The position numbers and the translations under genes are program-made. 64,000 nucleotides of DNA from Candidatus Aceula meridiana (GTDB lineage Bacteria; Omnitrophota; Gorgyraeia; Zapsychrales; Aceulaceae): positions 4,650 to 68,649 of the forward strand of contig JAVCDE010000031.1 of assembly GCA_030765185.1 (NCBI GenBank). The letters run 5' to 3'. Numbering within the stretch: position 1 is the first letter of the stretch; each line of letters starts with the position of its first letter. Positions 9,301-28,411 of this stretch are shown piece by piece. A model generated the notes under the pieces. That model worked only from the letters and a program-made list of their open reading frames with translations. It ran no database searches and was not told the DNA's origin.

Positions 9301-9568
9301 GCAAAAGCGCATCCGGCCTTTCTTTTGCGATAACGCGCTCAACAAATTCTGGAGTCAGTGGCTCGATATACGTCGCATCCGCGATTTCTGGGTCAGTCAT
9401 AATCGTCGCGGGATTAGAATTAATCAAAACAACTTGATATCCTTCTTCCTTAAGCGCCTTGCACGCCTGCGTGCCAGAATAATCAAACTCGCATGCCTGG
9501 CCAATAATAATCGGACCCGAACCAATCAACAAAATTTTCTTAATATCGTTACGTCGTGGCATTTGCAC
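6299..9568 (-). CDS. carB: Carbamoyl-phosphate synthase large subunit.
   Basis: 1089 aa with duplicated ATP-grasp halves and an MGS-like C-terminal domain. Confidence 0.95.
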
Positions 9569-10646: not shown

Positions 10647-10763
10647 GAAAATTCTTTAGAAAATATTTTAAAAAGTTTGGCTGTGAAAACCAGCAACACT
10701 ATACCATTAACCGCATAGACGTCAAGAAAATATTAATTAGTATCTATATAAATAAGCTAAATT

Positions 10764-15200: not shown

Positions 15201-16731
15201 ATAGTACGGCCAAAGGCGTGTCCTCCCCCATAGACCCTGTTGCTTCTTTACCATCGGTAACCATGGGATAAAGAACAATTTTTAAATCTTCTAAGGTATA
15301 ACCAAAAACCTTTTGGCGCTCAAGCAATGTTTTTTCATCTAGTCCTTTTGCTTGCCAAGGCTTTGGCAATGTTTCAATATCAACAGATTGTTCTTGAATC
15401 CACTTTTGATAAGGATTCTTACTTGTGTATGATTTCTTAATTTCCTCATCATCAATAATTCGTCCTTCTTGCGTATCCACTAAAAACATCCGTCCAGGCT
15501 GTAGGCGTCCTTTCATCAACACATTTGCGGGTTCAATAGGCAAAACTCCTGCTTCCGAGGCCATAATAACCATATTGTCTTTTGTCACAAGATAACGTGA
15601 AGGACGAAGCCCATTTCTATCTAAAATAGCTCCGATATAACGTCCATCTGAAAAAGCAATCGATGCAGGTCCATCCCACGGTTCCATCAAAGCAGAATGA
15701 TATTCATAAAAAGCTTTCTTCTCTTCGCTCATACCTTCATGTCCGCTCCATGCCTCAGGAATCATCATCATAATGGCATGTGGCAGAGAGCGTCCGCACA
15801 ACATCAACATCTCTAAAACATTGTCAAATGTAGCTGAATCGCTGGCGTGAGGCGTGATGATAGGAAGAATTTTCTTTGTGTCTTTACCAAAAAGCTCGCT
15901 ATAAAATTGCATTTCCCGAGCATGCATCCAGTTGATATTGCCGCGAAGAGTATTAATCTCCCCGTTATGAACCATCATGCGATAAGGATGTGCTAAAGCC
16001 CATGTTGGAAATGTATTTGTACTATAGCGCGAATGTACCATCGCGAGACAGGAAGTCATGGCGGGGTCGTTTAAATCTTTGTAAAAAACACTAACCTGCT
16101 CCGCCATCAATTGGCCTTTATAAACAATGGTTTTTGAAGAAAGGCTGCAGATATAAAAATAATTCTTTTGAAGAATTTCGGACTCACGCATTTTAACTTC
16201 CATGCGTTTTCGGATCACATAAAGCTTGCGTTCAAAATCTTGATTGTCTCTTACTTGCTTACCCTTACCAATAAAAACTTGCTTAAACTCCGGCTCAACC
16301 GAACAAGCGATTTTTCCAATCTTGCTGCTGTCCGTTGGGACCTTTCGCCACCCTAAAAGAATTTGTCCTTCCTCTTTGATAATTTCTTCAAGCCATTCTT
16401 CGCAAATCTTCTGACTTTTTCCATCCGTCGGTAAAAAAACGATTCCAGCTCCATAAGCCCCTTCTTCAGGCAAATCGATATTAAAACTTGCACTTTCTTT
16501 ACGAAAAAATTCATCAGGAATTTGAATCAAAAGCCCTGCACCATCTCCCGTTAAAGGATCAGATCCTGTGGCGCCGCGGTGGGTGAGATTTTCTAAAATC
16601 TTAAGGCCGTCTTGAATAATTTTGTGAGACCTGTTGCCTTTGATGTTTGCGATAAACCCAATACCGCAACTATCTTTCTCAAAGGCAGGGTCATAGAGGC
16701 CCTGTTTCTTAGGATAAAGGAGATCTTTCAT
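12175..16731 (-). CDS. gltB: Glutamate synthase large subunit.
   Basis: 1518 aa with an N-terminal CGIGFIAN amidotransferase, a central domain, an FMN domain and a C-terminal GXGXG domain. Confidence 0.9.
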   Translation of the reverse strand: MKDLLYPKKQGLYDPAFEKDSCGIGFIANIKGNRSHKIIQDGLKILENLTHRGATGSDPLTGDGAGLLIQIPDEFFRKESASFNIDLPEEGAYGAGIVFLPTDGKSQKICEEWLEEIIKEEGQILLGWRKVPTDSSKIGKIACSVEPEFKQVFIGKGKQVRDNQDFERKLYVIRKRMEVKMRESEILQKNYFYICSLSSKTIVYKGQLMAEQVSVFYKDLNDPAMTSCLAMVHSRYSTNTFPTWALAHPYRMMVHNGEINTLRGNINWMHAREMQFYSELFGKDTKKILPIITPHASDSATFDNVLEMLMLCGRSLPHAIMMMIPEAWSGHEGMSEEKKAFYEYHSALMEPWDGPASIAFSDGRYIGAILDRNGLRPSRYLVTKDNMVIMASEAGVLPIEPANVLMKGRLQPGRMFLVDTQEGRIIDDEEIKKSYTSKNPYQKWIQEQSVDIETLPKPWQAKGLDEKTLLERQKVFGYTLEDLKIVLYPMVTDGKEATGSMGEDTPLAVLSRKPRLLFTYFKQLFAQVTNPPVDAIREEIIMAEDVLLGAEGDLLKETPEHIRRLKLKRPILLNEDLEKIRQLNKKGLSSVTLSILLKKDRGPQSIEKELEKLFAQADKAIKHKHTIIILSDRGVNKSHVSSPSLLACAALHHHLVKQGTRTKASIVLETGEAREMHHFATLIGYGANAINPYLALETIENEFNKGRYPEDLTLEILLENFLKSTRKGLFKITSKMGISTTQSYCGAQIFEAVGLGQELIDKYFTATPSRIGGVDVETVVKEMFLRHDAAYPEDDLPDNFLEDGGHYAWRKGGEHHQLNPDAIASLHYAVKNDKYDFYKKFADLINSQETNLATIRGLLKFKKGNSIPIKEVEPVSEIVKRFATGAMSYGSISKEAHETMAIAMNRLKAFSNTGEGGENPERFKPLPNGDSRCSRIKQVAQGRFGVTIEYLTNADQLQIKMAQGAKPGEGGQLPGHKVSQEIANTRYTTKGVGLISPPPHHDIYSIEDLAQLIHDLKNANPSADVSVKLVSEVGVGTVAAGVSKGKADHLLISGYGGGTGASPQTSIKNAGLPLELGIAETQQVLVMNDLRGRIRVQADSQLRTGRDVAIMAMLGADEFGFATIALVTMGCVMLRKCHLNACSVGIATQDPELRKNFTGKPEHVVNYFMFVAQECREIMAEIGIKTFNEMIGRVDLLETQEVIGHWKLKGIDLTNVLYKPQVPKEVKTFHCNTQTHGLEKALDREIIKLASKALEKKQPVKLDLPIQNTNRTVGTTLSHEIAKRYGLAGLPEDTIKINFKGSAGQSFGAFLANGVTFRLEGDSNDYMGKGLSGGRIVVVPPKAATFVPEENIIVGNVILYGAIKGEVFIRGIAGERFCVRNSGVHAVVEGIGDHGCEYMTGGRVVVLGPTGRNFAAGMSGGLAYIWDKNKEFKNQCNLGMVDLVDADDTADIAELKKLIEKHFTQTQSTVAKGILDNWETTVSQFVKVYPHDYRRVLEEAKGIVEKQVQEEEIENGSD

Positions 16732-16958
16732 AATTTGAATTTATTGACTTTGATCTTGAGCTTTTTGATCTTAGAATGTATCGTGTTGCGATTAATTCCT
16801 AAGGTCTTTGCAGCTAAAATTTTATTGCCGCCGGCAAGTTCTAGCGCCCTTTCGATGATAATGCGTTCAACGTCATCGATAATATAGCGATAAATTTCGC
16901 CTCGCTTAGCCTCGATAAAGTCCTGCTTGACTTTTTGTTCGATAATTTTTCTATTCAT
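16728..16958 (-). CDS. Small Fis-family helix-turn-helix DNA-binding protein (76 aa).
   Basis: The C-terminus ILAAKTLGINRNTIHSKIKKL is a Fis/NtrC-type HTH. The stop overlaps the gltB start (ATGA). Confidence 0.55.
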   Translation of the reverse strand: MNRKIIEQKVKQDFIEAKRGEIYRYIIDDVERIIIERALELAGGNKILAAKTLGINRNTIHSKIKKLKIKVNKFKL

Positions 16959-17000
16959 TGTATTATTTTTTCTTCCCTTAGCAATCTTTAAATGAAAATT

Positions 17001-18692
17001 TTACTTCTCGCGATATTTATTAGTAATTGGCAGCCGTCTGTCTTTGCCAAAGGCTTTAGGGCTAATCTTAATCCCTAAAGGAGCCTGACGCCTTTTATAT
17101 TCCATATGGTCAACTAAGTCGACTGTTTTTTTAACGAGCGAACGGGCTTTCTTATCCTTTAAGAATTTCCCAATGGCCTGATCACCCTCAACATAGGCTG
17201 CTAAAATAGCATCCAAGACGTCATAGGCCGGCAAGCTATCCTGATCTTTTTGATTCTTCTTTAATTCTGCCGTAGGAGCCCTCTTGATAATGCTTTGAGG
17301 AATCACTGCCTTTTTTCCTTTTTTATTCCGAAACTCTACTAATTTGTAAACTCTAGTTTTAGGAATGTCTTTAATAACCGCGAATCCTCCTGCCATGTCT
17401 CCGTAGAGGGTACAATACCCAACCGCTGTCTCACTTTTGTTTCCTGTTGTCAGAACGAGATGCCCATGCTTATTGGAAATAGCCATTAAGATATTTCCCC
17501 GGATGCGCGCCTGTAAATTCTGTTCCGCGACATCTGAAGGCGTTTTGCCAAAAATTGTCTTTAAAATTTTTAAATACTCAGCAAAAATACTCTTAATGGA
17601 AAGTTCCATAAACTCAATGCCAAGGTTTTGAGCCAATCTCTTAGCGTCCTTTTTGGTTCCAGAAGATGTGTATGGGCTCGGCATGGAAACACCAAGAACG
17701 TTTTTAGCACCTAAGGCATCACGAGCGATGGCAGCCACAAGAGCAGAATCAATTCCGCCACTGATTCCGATAACAGCCTTTTTAAAACCATTTTTATAAA
17801 GATAATCTCGCGTCCCTAAAACAAGAGCTTGATAGATTTCCTCTTCTGTTTTTAAATGTTTGTGAACACGGCCTTTGATAAAAATTCCTGCTTTGGTCTT
17901 GAAGTTCTTTTCAACTCTGATTTTCTCAACACCTTTTCCTTTAGAAGCCTTTGGGGAAACAGCAATATCTGCCACAATTAAATCTTCTTCAAATTGTTTT
18001 CCTGTAGCAAATGTCTTTCCCTTCGGGTCAACAAAAAAGCTTCCTCCGTCGAAAATAAGCTCATCTTGTCCCCCAACCAGATTGCAATAACAAACTGTTG
18101 CTTTAAGTTTTTTAGCGCATGCGGATAAAACTTTTTCTCGTTGCTTCATTTTTCCTAGATGATAAGGTGAAGCTGATAAATTTAAAAGAATCTGCGCTCC
18201 GGCCTTAGCCTGCAGCATACACGGCCCATTATCTGACCAAATATCTTCGCAGATACTAATGCCTAAGCTTATGCCGTCACAAGAAAAAATCTTTACTTTC
18301 TCTCCTTTTTGAAAATAACGCTTTTCATCAAAGACGCCATAATTAGGAAGATTGTTTTTTCGATAAACACTCTTAAGCTTTCCATTCGCGATAACAGCTG
18401 CTGCATTGAAAAGGCTTTTTTGTGAATCGCGGTCAACAAATCCTATGACCACTGTAATATTCTTAGTATGAGGCGTTACGGTTTTTAGTGTCGCCAGATT
18501 GTCGTCAATAAAGTGCTTTTTTAAAAGAAGATCTTCCGGAGGATATCCTGTAATGCTTAATTCTGGAAAAACAACAACATCAGAGCTCATCGCGCGGGCT
18601 TTTTGAATAGCCGAAACAATCTTTTCGGCATTGCCGTTAAGATCGCCGACCGTTGTGTTAATTTGAGCTAAAGCAATGCGGATATTTTTCAT
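17001..18692 (-). CDS. nadE: Glutamine-dependent NAD+ synthetase (N-terminal CN-hydrolase domain plus NAD synthetase domain).
   Basis: 563 aa with a nitrilase-like N-domain and a PP-loop SGGIDS motif. Confidence 0.9.
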   Translation of the reverse strand: MKNIRIALAQINTTVGDLNGNAEKIVSAIQKARAMSSDVVVFPELSITGYPPEDLLLKKHFIDDNLATLKTVTPHTKNITVVIGFVDRDSQKSLFNAAAVIANGKLKSVYRKNNLPNYGVFDEKRYFQKGEKVKIFSCDGISLGISICEDIWSDNGPCMLQAKAGAQILLNLSASPYHLGKMKQREKVLSACAKKLKATVCYCNLVGGQDELIFDGGSFFVDPKGKTFATGKQFEEDLIVADIAVSPKASKGKGVEKIRVEKNFKTKAGIFIKGRVHKHLKTEEEIYQALVLGTRDYLYKNGFKKAVIGISGGIDSALVAAIARDALGAKNVLGVSMPSPYTSSGTKKDAKRLAQNLGIEFMELSIKSIFAEYLKILKTIFGKTPSDVAEQNLQARIRGNILMAISNKHGHLVLTTGNKSETAVGYCTLYGDMAGGFAVIKDIPKTRVYKLVEFRNKKGKKAVIPQSIIKRAPTAELKKNQKDQDSLPAYDVLDAILAAYVEGDQAIGKFLKDKKARSLVKKTVDLVDHMEYKRRQAPLGIKISPKAFGKDRRLPITNKYREK

Positions 18693-18728
18693 TTTTGCTT
18701 ATTTCTTAGGCATAAATTGTTAAATTTT

Positions 18729-19436
18729 TTATTGGGACTCTTTGACAATATCTAAAAAATTGTTATAAAGGATGTCAGCTGCTGTATTAAATTTTGTCTT
18801 CATTTTATCATAATCGCCCAAGATGTCTTGCGCTTTTTGATCTTGCTCGGCATCCTCTATTTTCCAATATTCTTTAATCCAGCTTTCAATAATATCCCGC
18901 TTTACCTCTACGTGGAACTGTAGGCCATAAGCATTTTTTCCTACCCGAAATGCTTGGTGATGGCATCTTTCTGACTGGGCTAGATGTCTTGCTTGTTTCG
19001 GAATATTAAAAGCATCTTCATGCCACTGAAAGACCTTTAAATTCGGCTCCAACCCCTTAAAAAGCGGGTCACAGGTACCCTCCTCAGTTAGTGCAACATC
19101 ATAAAAACCAACTTCTTTTTCAGGCGCCTTCGTGACTTTGGCATCGCAAGCCTTGGCCAAAAGCTGAGATCCGAGACAGATCCCCATAAAAGGGATTTCA
19201 GCTTCAATAACCTTTTGAATAAAAAGATTTTCGTCGGCCAAAAAAGGATGCTTTTGTTCTTCATAAACATTCATTGGCCCGCCTAAAACAACTACAGACT
19301 CAATGTCTTCAAGTGAGGCCGGGAGACTTTCACCGGCTTCGAGATCAATTATTCTTGTCTTAAAGCCGGCGTTTTTAAAAAAGTCACCCATTGTTCCTGG
19401 GCCTTCAATGGCAATCTGCTTTAAAAAAACAATCAC
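18729..19436 (-). CDS. Class I glutamine amidotransferase (stand-alone GATase1, GuaA-N-like).
   Basis: GICLGSQLL catalytic Cys motif and downstream His region in a 235-aa protein. Confidence 0.7.
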   Translation of the reverse strand: MIVFLKQIAIEGPGTMGDFFKNAGFKTRIIDLEAGESLPASLEDIESVVVLGGPMNVYEEQKHPFLADENLFIQKVIEAEIPFMGICLGSQLLAKACDAKVTKAPEKEVGFYDVALTEEGTCDPLFKGLEPNLKVFQWHEDAFNIPKQARHLAQSERCHHQAFRVGKNAYGLQFHVEVKRDIIESWIKEYWKIEDAEQDQKAQDILGDYDKMKTKFNTAADILYNNFLDIVKESQ

Positions 19437-19449
19437 TCTTGCTCCTTAT

Positions 19450-21555
19450 TTAAAGCATAAAAAGCATCTCAGCATAAGAAGGAAGCGGCCAAAGATCTGC
19501 CGGAACTAATCCTTCTAAAACATCGATAGGTTTACGAAGCGCTACCATCGCAGCTTTTGTTTTTAAAGGATCGCCTTTTTTAATTGCGCCTTCAAGCTTG
19601 TCGGTTAGCTCTAGAGACTCTTCAAGCTTTGCCGTAATCTCTTTTAAAAGCTTGCGAGAAGCTTTAGATTTTGTTTTGTTCACTGCTTCGACCGACTTAA
19701 TTGTATCAGCCAACTCATTTTGATATGTCACAACAGCCGGTAAAATTATGGTCTTGGCCATATCTGCAGTTAAAGATGCTTCATAATTAATAATTGTTTC
19801 ATACGTTTCAAGATAGACGTCATGACGAGAAACAAGCTCTTTCTTAGTCAAAACACTATACTTCTCAAAAAGATTAACAACCTCAGGTTTTGTGACTTCG
19901 CCTAAAGCCTCAACAGTGTTCTTAAGATTTGGAAGTCCTCTCTTTTGGGCTTCCTTAACCCAAGCCTCTGTATAGTTGTCGCCATTATAAATGACTCTCT
20001 TATGCTTCTTGATAATATCCTGAAGAAGTTTTTGAACAGCTTTATTAAAAGCATCTTTTGATTTTCCTGCCTTTTCAAGTGTTGTGCAAACTTCATCTAA
20101 GCTTTCAGCCACAATTGTATTTAAAACAATATTTGCTCCCGCTAAACTCGCGTTAGAACCAACAGCGCGAAATTCAAACTTAGCGCCTGTAAAAGCAAAA
20201 GGAGAAGTTCTGTTTCTATCTGTAGCATCTCTTGGTAGTTTTGGCAAAGAGTCAACGCCGATTTCTAGAACGCCACCTTTTTTAGATGTCTTTGCTCCAC
20301 CTTTTTCAATCTGCTCGATAATGTCCGTCAGCTGTTCACCTAAAAAGATAGAAATAATCGCCGGCGGTGCTTCATGAGAACCTAATCGATGATCGTTTCC
20401 TGCTGAAGCAATCGAAGCCCGCAACATACCGGCATGCGTATCCACGGCTTTGATAATTGCAGCCAAAACAACCAAAAACTTGGCATTATCATGGGGGTTA
20501 TCTCCCGGAGCAAGCCAGTTTTTACCATCTGGTCCTACAACAGACCAGTTGTTATGCTTACCCGAACCATTAACACCTGCAAAAGGTTTTTCATGGAGAA
20601 GGCATGTGAGTCCGTGCTTTTCAGCGACTTTTTGCATAACCTCCATGCAAAGCATATTATGATCTACGGCCAAATTAAGGCTTTCAAAAACAGGAGCTAG
20701 CTCAAATTGAGCCGGAGCAACTTCGTTATGCTGAGTTTTAGCAGGAATGCCTAAGCGCCACATCTCTTTGTTAAGGTCTTCCATAAACCCAATAACGCGG
20801 TTTTTGATGGCTCCGAAATAATGGTCGGCCATCTGTTGATGCTTTGCAGGCTCTTTTCCAAAAAGCGTTCGGCCTGTTTGAATAAGGTCGATTCTTTGAA
20901 GATAAAGATCCCTGTCAATCAAGAAATATTCTTGCTCACCGCCTAATGTTGCATAGGCTTGTTTTCCTTTCGAGCTAATGCCGAAAATTTCTGCCAAACG
21001 GCAAACTTGTTTTGACAAAGCTTTCATGGAGCGCAAAAGAGGTGTTTTCTTGTCCAACGCATCCCCATGCCATCCAATAAAATAAGTTGGAATGCAAAGT
21101 GTCGCTCCATTTGGGCCTTCTTTAATAAAGGCGGGACTAGTCGGATCCCATCCCGTGTAACCACGAGCTTCAAATGTAGGACGTAAGCCACCCGACGGAA
21201 AACTTGATGCGTCAGGTTCACCTTGAGTTAATTCTTTTCCGGAAAACTTAATAACCACGCCACCTTCATCATCCGGAGAAATGAACGCATCGTGTTTTTC
21301 AGCGGTCAACCCAGTCAAAGGTTGAAACCAGTGTGTGAAGTGAGTGGCTCCCTTGGAAACAGCCCAAGTTTTCATCGCATCAGCGACTTCGTCAGCGATG
21401 TTCGGGTCTAACAGGCCCCCCATTGTAATTGTTTTGCTTAAAGATTTATAAGCTTTTTCCGATAAGTAATTACGCATAACCTTTAAGCTAAACACGTTTT
21501 CCCCATAGAAGTCCCCAATCGTTTCTATGGCTTGACTTTTTGATGTTTTTTTCAC
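19450..21555 (-). CDS. glnN: Glutamine synthetase type III.
   Basis: ~700 aa is the size typical of GSIII, and GS catalytic-domain motifs are present. The start is GTG, preceded by AAGGAGGAG. Confidence 0.85.
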   Translation of the reverse strand: MKKTSKSQAIETIGDFYGENVFSLKVMRNYLSEKAYKSLSKTITMGGLLDPNIADEVADAMKTWAVSKGATHFTHWFQPLTGLTAEKHDAFISPDDEGGVVIKFSGKELTQGEPDASSFPSGGLRPTFEARGYTGWDPTSPAFIKEGPNGATLCIPTYFIGWHGDALDKKTPLLRSMKALSKQVCRLAEIFGISSKGKQAYATLGGEQEYFLIDRDLYLQRIDLIQTGRTLFGKEPAKHQQMADHYFGAIKNRVIGFMEDLNKEMWRLGIPAKTQHNEVAPAQFELAPVFESLNLAVDHNMLCMEVMQKVAEKHGLTCLLHEKPFAGVNGSGKHNNWSVVGPDGKNWLAPGDNPHDNAKFLVVLAAIIKAVDTHAGMLRASIASAGNDHRLGSHEAPPAIISIFLGEQLTDIIEQIEKGGAKTSKKGGVLEIGVDSLPKLPRDATDRNRTSPFAFTGAKFEFRAVGSNASLAGANIVLNTIVAESLDEVCTTLEKAGKSKDAFNKAVQKLLQDIIKKHKRVIYNGDNYTEAWVKEAQKRGLPNLKNTVEALGEVTKPEVVNLFEKYSVLTKKELVSRHDVYLETYETIINYEASLTADMAKTIILPAVVTYQNELADTIKSVEAVNKTKSKASRKLLKEITAKLEESLELTDKLEGAIKKGDPLKTKAAMVALRKPIDVLEGLVPADLWPLPSYAEMLFML

Positions 21556-21571
21556 GAACTCCTCCTTTTTT

Positions 21572-21599
21572 CCGCCGAGGGCGGATCCGCCCTCGGTGG
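21572..21599 (-). promoter_or_regulatory. Perfect 22-bp GC-rich palindrome (CCGAGGGCGGATCCGCCCTCGG) between glnK and glnN. It is a stem-loop without a U-tract.
   Basis: The inverted repeat with a central GGATCC was read directly. On the minus strand it is followed by AAAAAAGGAGGAG and the glnN start. A possible transcript processing/stability or attenuation element. Confidence 0.4.
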
Positions 21600-21628
21600 C
21601 ACATTAATTAAACATCTTGCCTTTTTCT

Positions 21629-21970
21629 CTACCCTATAGCCTCGATTCCTTCTTCTTCAGTCCGAATGCGGATGCAGCGCGGCAAATCTAAAACAAAAAT
21701 CTTTCCATCCCCGATATTTCCTGATTTGGCGCCCTTGATAATCGCTTTAATCGTCGGCTCAACAAAATCTTTGTTGACTCCAATCTCAAGACGAACCTTT
21801 TTCAAAAGGTTTACCTCGTGGACAACACCTCGATACGTCTCGCTATAGCCTCTTTGCTGGCCACATCCTAAGACATTTGTGACTGTCATTTTGTGAACAC
21901 CTGCCTCAAAGAGTGCTTTCTTAACATCCGGAAGCTTGTGAGGCTGAATCATTGCTATAATCAGTTTCAT
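21629..21970 (-). CDS. glnK: Nitrogen regulatory protein P-II.
   Basis: 112 aa starting [13 protein letters not shown], with a T-loop containing the uridylylation-site Tyr context RGYSETYRG. Confidence 0.9.
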
Positions 21971-22041
21971 ATTCTCTCTCCTTTAAATGAGCGTATAATT
22001 TACGTGACCGCAAGAAGCGTAAATTATTTACGCGAATTTAT

Positions 22042-22063
22042 CCCGCACATAAAATGTGTCGGG
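22042..22063 (-). repeat. Bulged GC hairpin motif, copy 1 (CCCGCACAT-aaa-ATGTGTCGGG), 11 nt after the amt stop.
   Basis: It is one of three copies (24159, 60480) sharing the flank GCRARKTTAYCCCGC...GTCGGGA. All have a one-base bulge, and the inner stem shows compensatory changes. Confidence 0.5.
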
Positions 22064-22076
22064 ACGGTCTATGTTC

Positions 22077-23423
22077 TTATTCGGTTGTAAAAACCTGGAA
22101 CCCTTTGTAAGATTCCATTCCATGCAAACTAATGTCAAGCCCCTTAAGTTCTTCTTCACGAGTAACCCTTAGGCCTTTGGTAATTTTTGCAATAACCGTA
22201 AAAATAATAAACATCATAGCCGCAACAAACGCAACGGCAGCCAACAGGCCAGCCGCTTGAATACCAAGCTGTTTAAATCCTCCGCCATGCAAAAGCCCAT
22301 CGTTAGCAAGGCCCAATGCTTTGTGGCCAAAAATCCCAACAGCCAAAGTTCCCCAAGAACCGTTCATTAAGTGAACCGGCACAGCGCCAACAGGGTCATC
22401 AACGCCGACCTTGTCTAAAAAAATCGTTCCAAGAACAACAATAATCCCAGCGATAGCTCCTATAATCAGCGCTTCGCTTGGCATAATAAATCTACAAGGT
22501 GCTGTAACAGCAACTAATCCAGCCAAAGCGCCATTCATTGTCATAGTTAAATCTGGCTTACCAAACAATTTCCAAGCAAAAAACATAGCAACTAATCCCC
22601 CTGAAACAGCAGATAAATTTGTTGTCATGGCCACGTGAGCAATAGCACTTCCATCGCCAACACTTAAGGTCGATCCTGGATTGAAACCAAACCAAGCAAA
22701 CCAAAGAATAAGCGCTCCCAAGGAAGCCAAGGGCATGGAATGGCCTTCGACCGCGTTCGCTGAGCCATCTTTGTTAAACTTTCCGATGCGGGGCCCAAGC
22801 ATCATGGTTCCAACAAGAGCTGCTGTTCCACCAACCGCATGAACAACAGTCGATCCTGCAAAATCAGCAAACCCAAGATTGGCTAACCATCCACCGCCCC
22901 AAATCCAATGTCCGACGATAGGATAAACTGTAGCTGAAATTAAAAATGAATACATCAAATAAGCTTGAAATTTCATGCGTTCGGCAACACCACCGGCAAC
23001 GATTGTGGCTGCCGCACCACAAAAAACAGCATGAAAAAACCACTCTGCATATAAAGGAATATGAGCGCCGGGTTCGATGTTATTTAAAAACCACCCGCTG
23101 AAGCCCATAAAACCATTTCCGACGCCAAACATAATAGCATACCCAAAAATAAAGAACCCAACGGATGCCATACAAAAATCTAAAAAGTTGCACATCAAAA
23201 CGTTGCACGTATTCTTTGTCCGAATAAGCCCTGCTTCAAGCATGCCGAATCCTGCCTGCATAATAAAAACCATAAAAGCAGCAATCATAACCCAAAGGGT
23301 ATCAACACCGACTTTTGACGCAAACACTACTTCTTCCTGCGCGTATACTACTGCTGGGCAAACCAAAAGAAAAGCCAGGATAAGGGCTTTTTTTCTTAAG
23401 ATGTTTTTCAAAAATGTCATCAT
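22077..23423 (-). CDS. amt: Ammonium transporter (Amt family) with signal peptide.
   Basis: 448 aa, 11 TM segments, Amt signature regions, and a glnK partner downstream. Confidence 0.9.
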   Translation of the reverse strand: MMTFLKNILRKKALILAFLLVCPAVVYAQEEVVFASKVGVDTLWVMIAAFMVFIMQAGFGMLEAGLIRTKNTCNVLMCNFLDFCMASVGFFIFGYAIMFGVGNGFMGFSGWFLNNIEPGAHIPLYAEWFFHAVFCGAAATIVAGGVAERMKFQAYLMYSFLISATVYPIVGHWIWGGGWLANLGFADFAGSTVVHAVGGTAALVGTMMLGPRIGKFNKDGSANAVEGHSMPLASLGALILWFAWFGFNPGSTLSVGDGSAIAHVAMTTNLSAVSGGLVAMFFAWKLFGKPDLTMTMNGALAGLVAVTAPCRFIMPSEALIIGAIAGIIVVLGTIFLDKVGVDDPVGAVPVHLMNGSWGTLAVGIFGHKALGLANDGLLHGGGFKQLGIQAAGLLAAVAFVAAMMFIIFTVIAKITKGLRVTREEELKGLDISLHGMESYKGFQVFTTE

Positions 23424-23462: not shown

Positions 23463-23510
23463 AAAACAAAAAAGAGGTCTAAACAGTCACCGCTGACCAT
23501 TTTGGACCTC
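23463..23510 (-). terminator. Leader intrinsic terminator/attenuator upstream of amt.
   Basis: Minus-strand RNA reads GAGGUC-(26-nt loop with inner GUCA-GCGG-UGAC hairpin)-GACCUC followed by UUUUUUGUUUU. It lies between the predicted promoter and the amt start. Confidence 0.45.
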
Positions 23511-23624
23511 ATTGCCCAGAAATCGCGTGGTTATAAAAAATCCCCAAAAAACTACCGCCGAGAAGACGTAATTTCTTGAGGACTTCATTGTCCAACAGTA
23601 GACGCCATTGCCTACTTTTTAAGC

Positions 23625-23652
23625 AGTATACAATAAAAAAATTTTTTGTCAA
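23625..23652 (-). promoter_or_regulatory. Sigma70-like promoter for amt (TTGACA-16-TATACT).
   Basis: Hexamers read on the minus strand: -35 at 23647-23652 and -10 at 23625-23630, with a 16-nt spacer. Confidence 0.45.
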
Positions 23653-23693
23653 TACCCCTTTTTCAACAAAATTCCTTTTTTTGTTTTGGCTAG

Positions 23694-23722
23694 GAAGGGC
23701 GGCTTTTTAAAAGCCGCCCTTC
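23694..23722 (-). terminator. GC-rich hairpin GAAGGGCGGC-loop-GCCGCCCTTC downstream of the upstream glnK (probable terminator; atypical U-tract).
   Basis: Perfect 10-bp inverted repeat 3 nt after the glnK stop. The T-run lies on the other flank. Confidence 0.4.
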
Positions 23723-23742
23723 TTTCTTCTTTTAAAAAACCC

Positions 23743-24084
23743 TTACCCTATCGCTTTGTTTCCAGTCTCACCCGTACGGATCCGAATGCACTGAGGCAAA
23801 TCTAAAACGAAAATTTTTCCGTCTCCAATGTTGCCAGTTTTAGCACCTTTGGCAATCGCCTTAATAGTCAGGTCAACAAACTCTTCATTCACCGCAATTT
23901 CAAGTCTCACTTTCTTTAAAAGATTGACCTGATGAACAACGCCACGGTAAGTTTCGCTAAACCCTTTTTGTTGTCCACATCCCAAAACATTAGTCACTGT
24001 CATTTTATGAACATCCGCCGCAAACAATGCTTTTTTGACATCAGGCAACTTATGCGGTTGAATCATCGCAATAATCAATTTCAT
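23743..24084 (-). CDS. glnK: Nitrogen regulatory protein P-II (second copy, ~85% identical to the first).
   Basis: 112 aa starting [13 protein letters not shown]. Confidence 0.9.
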
Positions 24085-24158
24085 AATCTTCCTCCTCCTT
24101 TAAATGAGCGTATAATTTAAGCGACTGCAAAAAGCGTAAATTATCTACGCGAAGTTAT

Positions 24159-24180
24159 CCCGCACATAAAACGTGTCGGG
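24159..24180 (-). repeat. Bulged GC hairpin motif, copy 2 (CCCGCACAT-aaa-ACGTGTCGGG).
   Basis: It occupies the same position after the second amt stop. The ~100-bp amt-glnK intergenic segment is ~88% identical to the first. Confidence 0.5.
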
Positions 24181-24192
24181 ATAGTCTATATT

Positions 24193-25584
24193 TTATTCGG
24201 TTGAAAAGATCTGGAATCCCGCATAAGCTTCCATCCCATGCTCTTCAATATCAAGACCCCGAAGCTCTTCATTCCCGCTGACGCGAAGACCAATCGTTTT
24301 CTTAATAATATAAAACAAAGCAAACCCTGTTATTAAACACCAGACAAAAACAGCCCCTACGCCTGCTAGCTGAGCTAACAACAATTTAGCCCCGCCTCCA
24401 AAAAAGAGGCCGTTTCCTGTTGTCCCCGGAGCAAAAATGTCTTGAGCAAAAAGCCCTACAGAAATAGTTCCCCAGGCACCGCAAACACCATGAACAGAAA
24501 CAGCACCAACAGGATCATCGATGCGAAGAACCTTATCTACAAAAACAACCGCAAAAACAACTAAAACTCCAGCAACAGATCCAATAATAACCGCGCTTCC
24601 GGCAGAAACAAAAGCACACGGCGCTGTAATGCCGACTAATCCAGCTAAGGCCCCATTAAGCGCCATCGAAAGGTCTGGCTTTCCAAAAAGTTTCCACGAA
24701 ACCAGCATGGCAGCACAAGCTCCGGCTGCTGCAGCCAAATTAGTTGTTACAGCAATATGGCCGATATCTAAAACTGCTCCCATTGTACTTCCAGGATTAA
24801 ACCCAAACCATCCAAACCAAAGGATAAAAACACCTAAAGCAGCTAAAGGAAGGTTGTGTCCCGGAATAGCATTTGAGCTTCCGTCCGGATTATATTTTCC
24901 GATCCTAGGCCCAAGCATAATAGCGCCCGTTAAAGCAACCCAAGCACCGGTAGAGTGGACAACCGTAGAACCTGCAAAATCCCAAAATCCAAGATTAGCA
25001 AGCCAGCCACCGCCCCAAATCCAATGACCAACAACCGGATAAATAAGGGCTGTCACCACAACGCTAAACGCAAGGTATCCTATAAACTTCGTACGTTCGG
25101 CCATAGCTCCAGAGACAATGGTCGCTGCCGTAGCCGCAAAAACAAGCTGGAAAAAATATTTTGCTTCTAACGGAATAGTTGACCAAGCTAAAGAATCAAA
25201 CGTTCCTCCTAAATCTTTAAGAAAGAACCCGCTTGTTCCAAAGAGCGCATTTCCTGCGCCAAACATAATTCCGAATCCGATAGCCCAATAGATAATCGTT
25301 CCTACAGAAAAATCCATCAGATTTTTCATCAAGATATTACAAGCATTCTTAGCCCTAGTAAACCCTGTCTCAACAAGGGCAAATCCGGCCTGCATAAGCA
25401 TAACCAAGAAAGCCGCAAGAATGGTCCAAACAGTATCCAGGATCACTTTGTTTTCTTGAATAAGCTCCGCATTGTCAGCTATGCTCGATGCGTCTTGCGC
25501 AAACACCGGGCCTGCAAGCCCTAAACACCCAATAACAAAAAGTGCCAGAGCCTTAGGCCATATTCTTTTTAATTCTTTAAACAT
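24193..25584 (-). CDS. amt: Ammonium transporter (Amt family), second, more divergent copy.
   Basis: 463 aa with a signal peptide and Amt TM topology. Confidence 0.9.
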   Translation of the reverse strand: MFKELKRIWPKALALFVIGCLGLAGPVFAQDASSIADNAELIQENKVILDTVWTILAAFLVMLMQAGFALVETGFTRAKNACNILMKNLMDFSVGTIIYWAIGFGIMFGAGNALFGTSGFFLKDLGGTFDSLAWSTIPLEAKYFFQLVFAATAATIVSGAMAERTKFIGYLAFSVVVTALIYPVVGHWIWGGGWLANLGFWDFAGSTVVHSTGAWVALTGAIMLGPRIGKYNPDGSSNAIPGHNLPLAALGVFILWFGWFGFNPGSTMGAVLDIGHIAVTTNLAAAAGACAAMLVSWKLFGKPDLSMALNGALAGLVGITAPCAFVSAGSAVIIGSVAGVLVVFAVVFVDKVLRIDDPVGAVSVHGVCGAWGTISVGLFAQDIFAPGTTGNGLFFGGGAKLLLAQLAGVGAVFVWCLITGFALFYIIKKTIGLRVSGNEELRGLDIEEHGMEAYAGFQIFSTE

Positions 25585-25612
25585 TTTCTCCCCCTTTCTT
25601 TTTAAGTAAGCT

Positions 25613-26410
25613 TTAAAACTCAGCGCTAAAGCCTACGCCCCAAAAAAATTCATTTTCATGAGCCCCGTCACCTTCATCTTTAACATCCCCAAATGGCATG
25701 CTATAGTTGATGCTGGGAGCCATGCTTAAAAACTTTGTAAGAGGAATCGTTACTCCTCCACTTAAAGCAACATCTCCGCCTTCTCCCTTAATAAAGAGCT
25801 TGCGGTTATAACCAACATGTCCGCCTAAATCTAAGGTAATCCCATAAGAAGGAACAAGGTCAAGACTGTGGCTTAAATCCAGAACTAAGTAATCTCCCTT
25901 ACCTCCGCCTTGGCTTTCCCGGCTATAATCATGGTACCATGTAAGCGACGGCGCTAAAAAAGTATCATAGGAAAAACCTAAAACAGCCTCTTTGCTGAAA
26001 GTTCCTGCATCAGGAAAATCATAATAAACATGGCCAACGGTAACGCTGAAGGTTTCTAAATCTTTATCAAAAAGATTGAGATTCTCAAAGTCGTATGTAT
26101 ACGTCAGCGATGTATCCATTTCAGAAGAAGCCCTACCATCGGCTGCATCAATATCAAAATTTGACCAGACACCTAACTCAAAGCCATAAGCACCAATGGT
26201 GAAACCAGGCTGTATAACAAAATCGTTATCAAGCTTCATTCCGCGCCAAATGTATTTTGAATAAAGGTCTGTGGTAGCACTAATATCAACATTGATATTC
26301 TTTTCCCCTAAGAAATTTCCAATAACCGTTTTTGGCTCTTCTTGAGCCATAGAAATCCCTGCCGTTAAAACAAACATTGTTCCTACAACTGCTGTGAAAA
26401 ATCTTCTCAT
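25613..26410 (-). CDS. Putative outer-membrane beta-barrel protein (porin-like), first gene of the amt-glnK unit.
   Basis: Signal peptide ending AQEE, alternating amphipathic strands, and a C-terminal aromatic residue (SAEF). A 28-bp gap separates it from amt. Confidence 0.5.
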   Translation of the reverse strand: MRRFFTAVVGTMFVLTAGISMAQEEPKTVIGNFLGEKNINVDISATTDLYSKYIWRGMKLDNDFVIQPGFTIGAYGFELGVWSNFDIDAADGRASSEMDTSLTYTYDFENLNLFDKDLETFSVTVGHVYYDFPDAGTFSKEAVLGFSYDTFLAPSLTWYHDYSRESQGGGKGDYLVLDLSHSLDLVPSYGITLDLGGHVGYNRKLFIKGEGGDVALSGGVTIPLTKFLSMAPSINYSMPFGDVKDEGDGAHENEFFWGVGFSAEF

Positions 26411-26469
26411 CTCAACTTCTCCTCTTTTAATTGTTTAACATCTTTTTCTTTACCAAAAAGAAAAGCCCC

Positions 26470-26640
26470 CTTCTTAAAAAGTCATCAACGACTTTAAAAA
26501 GAGGACTTCTTCGCCCACCTTAGGGACCCTTAAACCACAAAAACCCGACGGATCAATCATTGATCGGTCGAGCCTCTTTGCCCAGAAAATAAAAAACCTC
26601 TTAACCCTTCACCGGATTAAGAGGACTTCTTCGCCCATCT
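26470..26640 (-). promoter_or_regulatory. Leader with three consecutive terminator-like hairpins (26587-26624, 26535-26570, 26473-26495) and two copies of the direct repeat GGGCGAAGAAGUCCUCUU. Candidate ANTAR-responsive attenuators.
   Basis: T1 is an 11-bp stem with a GGUGAA loop followed by UUUUUUAUUUU. T2 is AAAGUC-GUUGAU-GACUUU plus a U-run. The middle hairpin is CGACCGAUC..GAUCCGUCG plus GGUUUUUGUGG. Each direct repeat can form GGGC-GAAGAA-GUCC overlapping the terminator base. Confidence 0.5.
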
Positions 26641-26649
26641 GTTACTTTA

Positions 26650-26677
26650 AATATACAACATTTTAGAAATTTGTCAA
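26650..26677 (-). promoter_or_regulatory. Sigma70-like promoter (TTGACA-16-TATATT) directly after the GAF-ANTAR stop, reading into the attenuator leader.
   Basis: -35 at 26672-26677 and -10 at 26650-26655 on the minus strand. Confidence 0.45.
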
Positions 26678-26687
26678 GGGCCTTTTT

Positions 26688-27929
26688 TTACTTTCTTTGA
26701 AAATCAGACATTAAAAGAATTGACTCAGCAACTTCTTTCATCGTCTTGCATGAATCCATACTTTTTTTATGAATCATTTTATAGGCCTGATTTTCATCCA
26801 AGCTATTCATGCGCATCAAAATGCCCTTAGCTCGTTCCACAAGTTTACGCGTTTCAAGGGCTTCTTTGGCCTTAACTGTCTCATCGACAAGCTTTGTGTT
26901 TTCAACCGCAATAGCAGCCTGATTTGAGACCATTTGAAGAACATTTATCTCCTCTTGTGAAAAGCTATGTGGCTTTTTAGTATAAATATTAATAACGCCA
27001 ACAATGCGGTCCTTAACAATCATTGGCACTGAAAGCATAGAGCTTAAGCCCTCTTTTATGGCCAAATCCCGATAAGCATATTTTTCCTCTATCCTAACAT
27101 CGAAATACATTTTAGCCTTGCGTGCTTTTACAGCTTCACCGCTTAAACTTTTTTCTACCTTGATGTCAGATTTTTTCTTATAATCTTGACTTAAAGATTG
27201 TGTCGCTTTAATAGAAAGCTCATTTTTCTTTTCATCTAAAAGCATAATCGAGCAAATCTTGGAATCCAGCATCTCAGCTGTCACGACCACAATAAGATTT
27301 AAAATCTCATCCAAATAGCTCTCAGAAGTAATCGACTGACTCACTTTAATGAGTTTATCAAACTGGTTTGCCTTTTTTTTCGTTTCCTCATAGAGCCTGG
27401 CGTTTTCGATAACACCGCTGACTTGCTTTGAAATGGTTGTCAAAAGATTAATTGTCGCATTGGGAGTCGAATGTACTTTTTTATACTGAATATTGATAAC
27501 GCCGCTTGTCCTTCCCTTATATATAATCGGGACAGACACAAAAGCTTCATATCTGTCTTCAGGCAAGACATCGAACCCTTTAAAACGCTTATCTTTATAA
27601 GCGTTTTGCTTAATATTGACAACTTTGCTTTCTTTGGCAACCCAACCAGTAATGCCCTCTCCGGCTCGCAGGCTAATTTTCCCAAGTTCTTGTTTGTGAG
27701 GAATTTTTGAAGCCAAAAGGATTAAATTTTTTCGGCTCTCATCAAAAAGATAAATAAAAACGGAGTCTGCTTTAGTAGCTACGCTAACAATATTAACAAC
27801 TTCCTTTAAAATCGGGGCAAGGTCTAAGTCTGAAGAAACAAGATCGACAATTTTTCGTAAAATCTCCACTTCTTGGGCTTGACTACGCAATTTAGCGGAT
27901 GTCTTTGTTTTTACAACTTGCTTAGGCAT
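26688..27929 (-). CDS. GAF-GAF-ANTAR RNA-binding antitermination regulator.
   Basis: Two ~150-aa GAF-like repeats. The C-terminus LVERAKGILMRMNSLDENQAYKMIHKKSMDSCKTMKEVAESIL matches the ANTAR domain (AmiR/NasR/EutV family). Confidence 0.75.
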   Translation of the reverse strand: MPKQVVKTKTSAKLRSQAQEVEILRKIVDLVSSDLDLAPILKEVVNIVSVATKADSVFIYLFDESRKNLILLASKIPHKQELGKISLRAGEGITGWVAKESKVVNIKQNAYKDKRFKGFDVLPEDRYEAFVSVPIIYKGRTSGVINIQYKKVHSTPNATINLLTTISKQVSGVIENARLYEETKKKANQFDKLIKVSQSITSESYLDEILNLIVVVTAEMLDSKICSIMLLDEKKNELSIKATQSLSQDYKKKSDIKVEKSLSGEAVKARKAKMYFDVRIEEKYAYRDLAIKEGLSSMLSVPMIVKDRIVGVINIYTKKPHSFSQEEINVLQMVSNQAAIAVENTKLVDETVKAKEALETRKLVERAKGILMRMNSLDENQAYKMIHKKSMDSCKTMKEVAESILLMSDFQRK

Positions 27930-28027
27930 GTCTTCTCCTTAATAAATATAGAGTGTATTCTATCATAAAATTTTAGGGAATAAAAATTTTTCTTCCCGCT
28001 CATTGCTTTTAGAGGTACAATGTTTTT

Positions 28028-28411
28028 ATGACATTCAAAGACGGTAAAAAAGAAATTCTCGTTATTGACGATGACCCGGTTCAAATTAAGCTTTTAGAAA
28101 AACGCCTACCGGAGAACGGATACGCTGTTCTAACGGCTACCAAAGCCGCTGAAGGGCTTCAAATGGCTATCGATAAACACCCTGACCTCATTGTTCTAGA
28201 TGTCATGATGCCTATCATCAACGGCTACAACCTTTGCCAACTTTTAAAAGCTGAAGAAAAACACAAAAATATCCCTGTGATTATGCTAACCTCACGTGAT
28301 AAAGAAAAGGATATTAAAATCGGCCATAATGTCGGTGCTGATGCTTACCTGATCAAACCCGTAGATGTGCCTATTTTGCTTCAGAAAATCGAAGAACTTC
28401 TAAGAAACTAA
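28028..28411 (+). CDS. Single-domain response regulator (CheY-like receiver).
   Basis: ILVIDDD...LIVLDVMMP...K motif set. Transcribed divergently from the ANTAR regulator. Confidence 0.85.
   Translation: MTFKDGKKEILVIDDDPVQIKLLEKRLPENGYAVLTATKAAEGLQMAIDKHPDLIVLDVMMPIINGYNLCQLLKAEEKHKNIPVIMLTSRDKEKDIKIGHNVGADAYLIKPVDVPILLQKIEELLRN

What the first reader, a model, noticed from the sequence alone, without database searches (positions are those of the whole stretch)
26411..27929. GAF-GAF-ANTAR regulator followed by a promoter and three tandem leader terminators with GNNGNN hexaloops. Candidate antitermination control of a porin-amt-glnK operon.
The ANTAR C-terminus was seen directly in the sequence. 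A near-consensus sigma70 promoter (TTGACA-16-TATATT) starts 11 nt after the regulator's stop codon. The ~240-nt leader it would produce carries three intrinsic-terminator-like hairpins, each followed by a U-run. T1 has loop GGUGAA, T2 has loop GUUGAU, and a palindromic hairpin lies between them. Two copies of the 19-nt direct repeat GGGCGAAGAAGUCCUCUU sit ahead of T1 and T2. Each repeat can fold as GGGC-GAAGAA-GUCC, whose 3' strand overlaps the base of the terminator stem. Tandem hexaloop hairpins where the second competes with a terminator is the known architecture of ANTAR targets, as in the EutV, NasR and AmiR systems. Here the loops are G1/G4 rather than the published A1/G4. That difference could mark a divergent ANTAR subfamily gated by GAF domains in response to a nitrogen-status ligand, controlling ammonium uptake.
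Basis: partly seen in the sequence, partly recalled or inferred. Interest (0 to 1): 0.85.

Follow-up and report, generated by a model that had tools for sequence, protein, structure and literature searches.

The report
ANTAR antitermination leaders for ammonium-uptake genes
An uncultured Omnitrophota bacterium probably switches on its ammonium-uptake and nitrogen-assimilation genes with an RNA-binding ANTAR regulator that overrides a series of transcription stop signals, which is a known kind of switch with an unstudied sensor and an unusual RNA layout.

Summary
A GAF-GAF-ANTAR gene (26688-27929, minus strand) is followed by an 11/12-match promoter and a ~233-nt leader with three hairpin-plus-U-run terminators and a 19-nt exact repeat.

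The reading as an ANTAR antitermination leader is strongly supported:
- The hairpin GGRC-RNNGNN-GUCC overlaps each terminator base.
- It recurs in a second leader (23424-23620) before a second amt-glnK-GS-GOGAT cluster.
- It is conserved next to orthologous regulators in Omnitrophota and Nitrospirota.

The proposal of a divergent G1/G4 subfamily is not supported. A1/G4 dominates (32/39 loops), G1 is a local variant, and published EutV structures show that only G4 is contacted.

Two things are less ordinary:
- No GAF-ANTAR protein has been characterised, and GAF1 resembles the glutamine-sensing PtsP GAF and the NifA GAF.
- In Omnitrophota the partner hexaloop usually sits at the tip of the terminator, 3' of the competing hairpin (20/35 units against 8% background). 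This reverses the published P1-P2 order.

Verdict: a new variant of a known kind. The mechanism is inferred, not tested.

The parts
26688..27929 (-). GAF-GAF-ANTAR one-component regulator gene (413 aa)
   Evidence: Pfam finds two GAF stretches (best 206-343) and ANTAR at residues 354-405. It is 100% identical to an NCBI protein of Candidatus Aceula meridiana. The EutV RNA-contact residues are conserved.
26650..26677 (-). Promoter 1: TTGACA-16-TATATT. The predicted transcription start is near 26643.
   Evidence: 11 of 12 matches. Both hexamers are invariant in the closest relative L081. Similar promoters occur in many Omnitrophota loci. The start site has not been measured.
26623..26636 (-). 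Unit 1A competing hairpin GGGC-GAAGAA-GUCC (G1/G4), inside the 19-nt repeat 26619-26637
   Evidence: Covariance model hit of 21.5 bits, E = 0.017. The hairpin alone has a free energy of -4.2 kcal/mol.
26586..26624 (-). Terminator T1: an 11-bp stem at 26597-26624, apical hexaloop GGUGAA at 26608-26613, and a U-run at 26586-26596
   Evidence: The stem shares CC with the 3' strand of hairpin 1A. The apical loop keeps G1 and G4 in L081, where it reads GAAGAA.
26570..26583 (-).
   Evidence: It is only a weak covariance model hit (10.5 bits). In L081 it reads GGGC-GAAGAG-GCCC.
26539..26572 (-). Middle terminator (stem 26544-26572, UGA triloop) with a U-run at 26539-26543
   Evidence: Its 5' strand overlaps the 3' strand of hairpin 1B.
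26503..26516 (-). Unit 1C competing hairpin GGGC-GAAGAA-GUCC, inside the repeat 26499-26517
   Evidence: This is the best covariance model hit in the window (22.1 bits, E = 0.012).
26455..26506 (-). Terminator T2: stem 26465-26506 with a UU bulge, apical hexaloop GUUGAU at 26484-26489, and a U-run at 26455-26464
   Evidence: It overlaps the whole GUCC of hairpin 1C. In L081 the apical stem GUC/GAC becomes GCC/GGC, a compensatory change, and the loop GGUGAU keeps G1 and G4.
23743..26410 (-). Controlled operon 1: Gcw_chp porin-like protein (25613-26410), ammonium transporter (24193-25584) and PII/GlnK (23743-24084)
   Evidence: Pfam. The same gene order follows the regulator in L002, L021, L027 and L081.
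23692..23724 (.). Strong bidirectional terminator that ends operon 1
   Evidence: A 15-bp stem.
23625..23652 (-). Promoter 2: TTGACA-16-TATACT
   Evidence: 11 of 12 matches. It is identical in L081.
23580..23615 (-). Leader 2, unit 2A. This is a canonical dual hexaloop: GUAGGC-AAUGGC-GUCUAC (23598-23615), a 4-nt linker, then GGAC-AAUGAA-GUCC (23580-23593).
   Evidence: Covariance model hit of 20.4 bits.
23535..23582 (-). Terminator 2A (23541-23582) with a U-run at 23535-23540
   Evidence: It overlaps UCC of the 3' strand of hairpin 2A.
23504..23517 (-). Unit 2B competing hairpin GGGC-AAUGAG-GUCC
   Evidence: Covariance model hit of 18.9 bits.
23468..23510 (-). Terminator 2B: base GAGGUC/GACCUC at 23474-23510, apical hexaloop AGCGGU at 23489-23494, and a U-run at 23468-23473
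   Evidence: The apex keeps A1 and G4 in L081, where it reads AGUGGC.
6299..23423 (-). Genes downstream of leader 2: amt2, glnK2, GS type III, GATase, NadE, a small Fis-type HTH ORF, gltB, gltD, carA and carB. Co-transcription beyond glnK2 is not shown.
   Evidence: Pfam. The order amt-PII-GSIII-NadE(-gltB) recurs in Omnitrophota loci.

Best explanation
The GAF-GAF-ANTAR protein is a one-component nitrogen regulator that acts on nascent RNA.

**Default state.** Two constitutive-looking sigma-70 promoters start transcripts. By default these stop at three (leader 1) or two (leader 2) successive intrinsic terminators, before the porin-like/amt/glnK operon and the amt2-glnK2-GS... cluster.

**The switch.** Each terminator is preceded by a weak 4-bp hairpin with a hexaloop (GGRC-RNNGNN-GUCC). 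Its 3' strand is also the basal 5' strand of the terminator.

**Active state.** When the regulator is active, presumably at low glutamine or high 2-oxoglutarate sensed by its PtsP/NifA-like GAF domains, its ANTAR dimer binds and holds this hairpin. A partner hexaloop is also bound; in most units this is the tip of the terminator. The basal pairs next to the U-run then cannot form, and RNA polymerase reads through.

**Serial arrangement.** Several units in series would multiply the effect, giving a tight off state.

**Shown here:** the sequence elements, their mutually exclusive pairing, their conservation and co-location with the regulator, and conservation of the RNA-contact residues.

**Inferred:** binding, the direction of regulation, the ligand and the transcription start site.
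For: **Protein**
- ANTAR scores well above the Pfam cut-off.
- An ungapped alignment to EutV places R361, K362, R366, K368, E379, Y383 and M391 at the positions of the EutV residues that contact the hexaloop (residues named in PMC8934654).

**RNA in the window**
- The motif GGRCRANGARGTCC occurs 4 times exactly, against 0.4 expected.
- Each hairpin overlaps a terminator by 2-6 nt. Forcing the hairpin leaves 2-7 or more unpaired nt between the remaining stem and the U-run.

**Conservation**
- A stem-only search on the regulator strand of 30 Omnitrophota loci gives 39 hexaloops, against 4-10 for other loop sizes. A1 is present in 82% and G4 in 95%.
- Model R1, built without the window, ranks the window's four strongest hairpins first.
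- R1 finds 19 hits in 50 non-Omnitrophota loci, all on the regulator strand.
- In 22 Nitrospirota leaders the consensus fold is the terminator. Its 5' strand is the hairpin's loop end and 3' strand, with 5 compensatory pairs.

**Regulon**
- Units precede amt, porin, GS III, NadE, nifH and, in one locus, the regulator gene itself.

**Closest relative, L081**
- It keeps all units. It has one compensatory stem change, and R1/G4 is retained in the changed apical loops.

**Sensor**
- GAF1 matches the GAF domain of PtsP (PDB 3ci6, E = 1.5e-23; NCBIfam PRK11061, E = 1.7e-35) and the NifA GAF domain (E = 5.8e-21).
- The EI-Ntr GAF domain binds glutamine (PMC4848567).

**Precedent**
- Geobacter GnfR binds CAGGCAANGGCGCC at leader terminators of nifH, glnK and amtB (PMC2995071).
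Against: - There are no expression, start-site or binding data; the organism is an uncultured MAG.
- In unit 1A the hairpin removes only two G-C pairs. A 9-bp stem of about -12 kcal/mol remains 2 nt from the U-run, so relief of termination there needs more than simple strand competition.
- Unit 1B has no detectable partner hexaloop and scores poorly with the model.
- Two of the hairpins have G1, whereas EutV and NasR genetics found A1 important.
- The ligand assignment rests only on domain similarity.
- EutV dimers were reported unable to bind both hexaloops at once, so the role of the partner loop is uncertain.
Confidence: 0.78

Rival explanations
1. The hairpins are real regulatory elements, but they are read by another factor encoded elsewhere in the genome. 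This could be a different ANTAR protein (for example a REC-ANTAR of the GnfR type), another RNA-binding protein, or a small molecule. On this view the adjacent GAF-ANTAR gene has other targets.
For: The same hexaloop class is used by REC-ANTAR GnfR in Geobacter. Only 64 kb of the genome is visible. Some orthologous regulators are not directly followed by the motif.
Against: The motif and regulator are co-located on the same strand across two or more phyla, with 19 of 19 hits on the regulator strand. No Rfam riboswitch matches. A 14-nt hairpin is too small for a ligand pocket. The neighbouring REC-only gene has no output domain and is not conserved family-wide.
Confidence: 0.08
2. The regulator acts in the opposite sense or at another level. 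It might bind the apical hexaloop and stabilise the terminators, acting as a repressor when ligand-bound. Or the terminated leaders might serve as decoy RNAs that titrate the protein, as EutX does for EutV.
For: The apical RNNGNN hexaloop is part of the terminator fold and is strongly enriched (16/37 against 7/228 terminators). Single hexaloops were proposed as sequestration sites in EutX.
Against: Every unit also has a hexaloop hairpin that is mutually exclusive with the terminator base. This is the hallmark of antitermination. Nitrospirota units lack apical hexaloops yet keep the competing hairpin. All characterised ANTAR systems antiterminate.
Confidence: 0.07
3. There is no regulation. On this view T1 simply terminates the regulator gene, the other hairpins are incidental, and the 19-nt repeat is a local duplication.
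For: The simple terminator scan flags only T1 of the three leader terminators. The two repeat copies are identical, as expected after a recent duplication.
Against: A promoter lies between the stop codon and T1. The motif is conserved while the flanking terminator sequences diverge completely between species. The fold z-scores are -4.6 and -4.5. The independent model recovers the sites.
Confidence: 0.04

Closest known systems
EutV/EutW and the eut leaders of Enterococcus faecalis, the reference ANTAR system (PMC3369931, PMC8934654)
   Same: Short-stem hexaloop hairpins with G4. One hairpin shares its strand with the 5' base of an intrinsic terminator. Several terminators are controlled by one protein. 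The RNA-contact residues are conserved.
   Different: EutV is a REC-ANTAR response regulator. Its constant partner hairpin P1 lies 5' of the competing hairpin, with a 5-12 nt linker. Here the sensor is GAF-GAF. In 3 of 5 window units the partner hexaloop lies 3', at the terminator tip (linker 6-10 nt), and two loops have G1.
GnfK/GnfR of Geobacter sulfurreducens (PMC2995071)
   Same: Nitrogen-limitation genes (nifH, glnK, amtB) carry leader terminators preceded and overlapped by a conserved site, CAGGCAANGGCGCC. This is a GGC-AANGGC-GCC hexaloop hairpin very like GGAC-AAUGGC-GUCC. Its binding and antitermination were shown experimentally.
   Different: GnfR is REC-ANTAR and is activated by phosphorylation. 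The regulator here has no receiver domain and would sense its signal directly.
NasR/nasF of Klebsiella, and PAL of Nakamurella: the only characterised one-component ANTAR proteins (PMC7496416)
   Same: A sensor domain is fused directly to ANTAR. In NasR, nitrogen-related genes are controlled by leader antitermination.
   Different: Their sensors are NIT (nitrate/nitrite) or PAS-LOV (light). No GAF-ANTAR protein is characterised in the literature searched.
GAF domains of PtsP (EI-Ntr) and NifA
   Same: These are the best sequence matches to GAF1. Both report nitrogen status. Glutamine binds the EI-Ntr GAF domain (PMC4848567). That 2-oxoglutarate binds the NifA GAF domain is from my own knowledge.
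   Different: Their outputs are a phosphotransferase or a sigma-54 activator, not RNA binding. Ligand binding by the GAF domains here is untested.
Bioinformatically predicted ANTAR nitrogen regulons, such as Desulfotomaculum acetoxidans with 13 sites in six transcription units (PMC3369931)
   Same: ANTAR motifs lie upstream of PII, amt, GS and GOGAT genes, often with several per unit.
   Different: Those searches required the upstream-P1/competing-P2 layout. Omnitrophota and Nitrospirota, and this regulator family, were not described there.

Membership tests
ANTAR domain proteins (PF03861) | ANTAR domain scoring above the curated threshold | tested here: met
   71 bits against a cut-off of 27.3, at residues 354-405.
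ANTAR domain proteins (PF03861) | Conservation of the residues that contact the hexaloop in the EutV-RNA structure (R142, K143, K147, K149, E160, Y164, M172) | tested here: met
   An ungapped alignment to 6wsh gives R361, K362, R366 (K to R), K368, E379, Y383 and M391 (residue list from PMC8934654).
ANTAR target RNA (dual-hexaloop antiterminator; Ramesh 2012) | Hairpins with stems of at least 3 bp and hexanucleotide loops | tested here: met
   There are six such hairpins in the two leaders. Hexaloops are favoured over other loop sizes in orthologous loci, 39 against 4-10.
ANTAR target RNA (dual-hexaloop antiterminator; Ramesh 2012) | G at loop position 4 | tested here: met
   All six window hairpins and three apical loops have G4. 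So do 37/39 hairpins in Omnitrophota loci.
ANTAR target RNA (dual-hexaloop antiterminator; Ramesh 2012) | A at loop position 1 | tested here: inconclusive
   Four of the six window hairpins have A1 and two have G1 (26623-26636 and 26503-26516). The family-wide split is A1 82%, G1 13%. A1 makes no specific contact in the EutV structure.
ANTAR target RNA (dual-hexaloop antiterminator; Ramesh 2012) | One hairpin is mutually exclusive with the 5' base of an intrinsic terminator | tested here: met
   True for all five units. In Nitrospirota the overlap is complete.
ANTAR target RNA (dual-hexaloop antiterminator; Ramesh 2012) | A second hexaloop hairpin 5' of the competing one, with a short linker | tested here: not met
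   Only unit 2A has an upstream partner. Units 1A, 1C and 2B have a partner 3', at the terminator apex, with linkers of 6-10 nt. Unit 1B has none. The layout is therefore a variant.
ANTAR target RNA (dual-hexaloop antiterminator; Ramesh 2012) | Bound by an ANTAR protein, with binding increasing read-through | not testable with these tools
   This needs EMSA and in-vitro transcription.
GnfR-type nitrogen antiterminators | REC receiver domain phosphorylated by a cognate kinase | tested here: not met
   The regulator has no Response_reg hit, only GAF x2 plus ANTAR. It works like GnfR but is not a member.
PtsP/NifA-type nitrogen-sensing GAF domains | Sequence similarity across the whole GAF domain | tested here: met
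   PDB 3ci6, E = 1.5e-23 over residues 19-178. NCBIfam PRK11061 positions 5-167, E = 1.7e-35, and nifA positions 3-168, E = 5.8e-21. All are below the whole-protein cut-offs, as expected for a shared domain only.
PtsP/NifA-type nitrogen-sensing GAF domains | Binds glutamine and/or 2-oxoglutarate | not testable with these tools
   This needs ITC or thermal-shift assays on purified protein.
Known riboswitch or leader families in Rfam (glutamine riboswitch, PyrR site and others) | Match at or near the gathering score | tested here: not met
   The only leader hit is PyrR at 26.9 bits against a gathering score of 54, E = 1.5.

The most novel reading that the evidence does not exclude
This GAF-GAF-ANTAR family may be the direct glutamine/2-oxoglutarate-sensing master regulator of nitrogen assimilation in Omnitrophota, Nitrospirota (including nitrite oxidisers) and some Acidobacteria and Elusimicrobia. 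It would act purely on RNA. In Omnitrophota it would use a reversed dual-hexaloop switch, in which the constant partner loop is the tip of the terminator and the 5' hairpin is the switchable element.
Probability: 0.4. Interest if true: 0.7.

Novelty: new variant of a known kind. Interest (0 to 1): 0.5.

Why it matters
ANTAR antitermination of nitrogen genes is established, so the principle is not new. Three points would matter if confirmed.

1. **A first assignable function for GAF-ANTAR proteins.** This is one of the commonest ANTAR architectures and has no characterised member. The data give it a testable ligand hypothesis: glutamine or 2-oxoglutarate, by analogy with the PtsP and NifA GAF domains.

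2. **Breadth of the family.** At least 581 loci were found among species-representative genomes. In Nitrospirota the regulator sits directly upstream of nadE, porin and amt genes. It may therefore be a main nitrogen regulator in environmentally important, hard-to-culture groups.

3. **Search models.** The Omnitrophota layout, with the partner hexaloop at the terminator tip, suggests that search models requiring an upstream P1 miss a class of ANTAR targets. It also bears on the open question of how an ANTAR dimer uses two hexaloops.

Tried and rejected
- **Rfam.** A scan of 23000-29000 at E up to 10 gave nothing for either leader. The cluster of sub-threshold hits at 23614-23740 is caused by the strong terminator after glnK1. 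The PyrR hit is noise.
- **Single-protein locus search.** The search for related loci with the single protein found no relatives, because its peptide patterns were poorly conserved. It worked once an alignment was used.
- **G1/G4 as a subfamily signature.** Rejected.
- **The REC-only neighbour (28028-28411) as a partner.** Rejected, because it is conserved only in the closest relatives.
- **Autoregulation in this genome.** There is no motif upstream of the regulator gene, although locus L027 has one.
- **Apical hexaloops in Nitrospirota terminators.** No enrichment was found: 2/28 against 9/237.
- **Literature searches.** Searches with 'ANTAR' as a word start were swamped by 'Antarctica'. Whole-word searches found nothing linking the ANTAR domain to Nitrospira or Omnitrophota, and no characterised GAF-ANTAR protein.
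- **Not run.** I did not run structure prediction, because it would not identify the ligand.
Full report
**Observation**

Everything lies on the minus strand.
- The ORF 26688-27929 encodes a 413-aa protein with two GAF domains and a C-terminal ANTAR domain (71 bits, cut-off 27.3).
- Eleven nt after its stop codon lies TTGACA-16-TATATT (26677-26650). It is one of only two 11/12-match promoter-like sites in 5.5 kb.
- The ~233-nt stretch down to the next ATG (26410) contains three hairpins, each followed by a U-run.
- It also contains an exact 19-nt repeat (18-nt core at 26619-26636 and 26499-26516; 0.02 copies expected by chance).
- It folds far better than shuffled controls (z = -4.64).
- The downstream genes are a Gcw_chp beta-barrel (porin-like) protein, an ammonium transporter and a PII protein.

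- The middle 'palindromic' hairpin is also preceded by a hexaloop hairpin, GGGC-AAAGAG-GCUC (26570-26583). Its loop is the canonical A1/G4 type. Leader 1 thus holds three equivalent hairpin-plus-terminator units.
- After glnK1 and a strong terminator there is a second 11/12 promoter (23652-23625) and a second leader. It has a textbook dual hexaloop, GUAGGC-AAUGGC-GUCUAC, a 4-nt linker, then GGAC-AAUGAA-GUCC. Next come a terminator, another hairpin GGGC-AAUGAG-GUCC and a second terminator.
- Leader 2 precedes amt2, glnK2, GS type III, a GATase, NadE, gltB, gltD, carA and carB.
- The motif GGRC-RANGAR-GUCC occurs four times in the window, against 0.4 expected.

**Origin and relatives**

- The regulator is identical to a protein of the MAG Candidatus Aceula meridiana (Omnitrophota). 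It has thousands of homologues with the same architecture.
- A pattern search of species-representative genomes found at least 581 loci. The best 80 are from Omnitrophota (62-73% identity) and from Nitrospirota, with a few Acidobacteria and Elusimicrobia (46-53%).
- In these loci the same hairpin, followed by a terminator that starts inside its 3' strand, lies on the regulator's strand. It usually begins 60-200 nt after the stop codon.

**Conservation of the RNA motif**

- Stem-only search. Searching only for the stem (GG[AG]C-Nx-GTCC) shows a preference for six-nt loops (39 against 4-10 for other sizes). The loops have A1 in 82%, G1 in 13% and G4 in 95%.
- Covariance model. A model was built from 30 Omnitrophota hairpins with the window excluded.
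  - It returns the window's four strongest hairpins as its top four hits in 128 kb of searched sequence (E = 0.012-0.063).
  - In 50 non-Omnitrophota loci it gives 19 hits at E ≤ 1, all on the regulator strand.
- Nitrospirota leaders. In 22 of them the consensus fold is the terminator. Its 5' strand consists of the hairpin's last loop bases and its whole 3' strand, and five pairs show compensatory change.
- Regulated genes. These are amt, porins, GS III, NadE, nifH and, in one locus, the regulator itself.
- Closest relative, L081 (87% protein identity).
  - It keeps every unit.
  - Its changed apical loops keep positions 1 and 4 (GGUGAA to GAAGAA, GUUGAU to GGUGAU, AGCGGU to AGUGGC).
  - One apical stem changes GUC/GAC to GCC/GGC.

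**Mechanism**

- Each competing hairpin is weak on its own (-3 to -4 kcal/mol), whereas the terminators are -18 to -26 kcal/mol.
- Forcing the hairpin removes the 2-6 basal pairs next to the U-run. This leaves 2-7 or more unpaired nt between the remaining stem and the U-run.
- From established knowledge of intrinsic termination, the basal pairs adjacent to the U-tract are required for release. A protein that holds the small hairpin should therefore cause read-through.
- The ANTAR domain aligns without gaps to EutV. It keeps all residues reported to contact the hexaloop: R361, K362, R366, K368, E379, Y383 and M391 (PMC8934654).
- In the EutV structure G4 makes the specific contacts and A1 makes none. 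This explains why G1 is tolerated.

This is the logic shown experimentally for EutV, NasR and AmiR (PMC3369931). For nitrogen genes it was shown for Geobacter GnfR, whose binding site CAGGCAANGGCGCC is nearly the same hairpin (PMC2995071).

**An unusual layout**

- Published targets have a constant hairpin P1 upstream and a competing hairpin P2 at the terminator base, with a 5-12 nt linker.
- In Omnitrophota the first unit starts about 10-15 nt after the predicted transcription start, which leaves no room for a P1.
- Instead, the tip of the terminator is itself an R-N-N-G-N-N hexaloop.
  - This holds for 16/37 motif-preceded terminators against 7/228 other terminators (Fisher p about 1e-10).
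  - As a hairpin 2-14 nt after the competing hairpin, it is found in 20/35 units against 8% at random positions.
- Units with an upstream partner mostly lack the apical one, and the reverse is also true.
- Nitrospirota show no apical enrichment. They often have an upstream partner 22-33 nt away.
- In the window, units 1A, 1C and 2B have apical partners (GGUGAA, GUUGAU, AGCGGU). Unit 2A has an upstream partner and unit 1B has none.

Whether the dimer binds both loops at once or in succession is unknown.

**Sensor**

- GAF1 is most similar to the N-terminal GAF domain of PtsP/EI-Ntr (PDB 3ci6, E = 1.5e-23; NCBIfam PRK11061, E = 1.7e-35) and of NifA (E = 5.8e-21).
- Glutamine binds the EI-Ntr GAF domain (PMC4848567).
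- This makes glutamine or 2-oxoglutarate sensing a reasonable hypothesis, but only a hypothesis.
- No GAF-ANTAR protein has been characterised in the literature I could search, and nothing links ANTAR to Nitrospira or Omnitrophota.

**Verdict**

- The antitermination reading is supported by independent comparative evidence, with confidence about 0.78.
- The idea of a 'divergent G1/G4 subfamily' is not supported.
- The system works like EutV and GnfR. It is not a GnfR family member because it has no receiver domain. It also departs from the canonical dual-hairpin layout.

I rate it a new variant of a known kind, of moderate interest.

Noticed in passing
window 16728-16958 (-): A 76-aa ORF lies between nadE and gltB, and its stop codon overlaps the gltB start (ATGA). 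It is a stand-alone Fis/NtrC-C-terminal-type helix-turn-helix protein (NCBIfam: ntrC C-terminus E = 2e-10; Fis family E = 6.5e-10). It appears to be translationally coupled to glutamate synthase.
   Followed up: partly
window 23692-23724: A perfect 15-bp GC-rich hairpin is flanked by an A-run and a T-run, forming a bidirectional terminator after glnK1. It accounts for all the sub-threshold Rfam hits at 23614-23740.
   Followed up: yes
window 28028-28411 (+): A receiver-only response regulator gene is transcribed divergently from the ANTAR gene. It sits next to the regulator only in the closest relatives (L001, L081-L084), not across the family.
   Followed up: partly
window 11892-11915 (+): This is the fifth-best hit of the hairpin model (17 bits, E = 0.17). 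It lies antisense inside gltD and is probably chance.
   Followed up: no
L023:3303-3550 and L027:83-130: In other Omnitrophota the same hairpin-plus-terminator unit precedes nifH (L023) and the regulator gene itself (L027). The regulon and any autoregulation therefore differ between species.
   Followed up: partly
L044-L080, about 100-200 nt after the regulator stop: In most Nitrospirota loci the regulator is followed directly by one unit and then the glutamine-dependent NAD synthetase gene nadE. In others the motif precedes an OmpL-like porin (BBP2) gene.
   Followed up: partly
window 26411-26690 compared with 23424-23660: In both this genome and its closest relative, leader 1 (porin-like/amt1) uses G1 loops while leader 2 (amt2) uses A1 loops. 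This may tune the response of the two ammonium-transporter operons differently.
   Followed up: no
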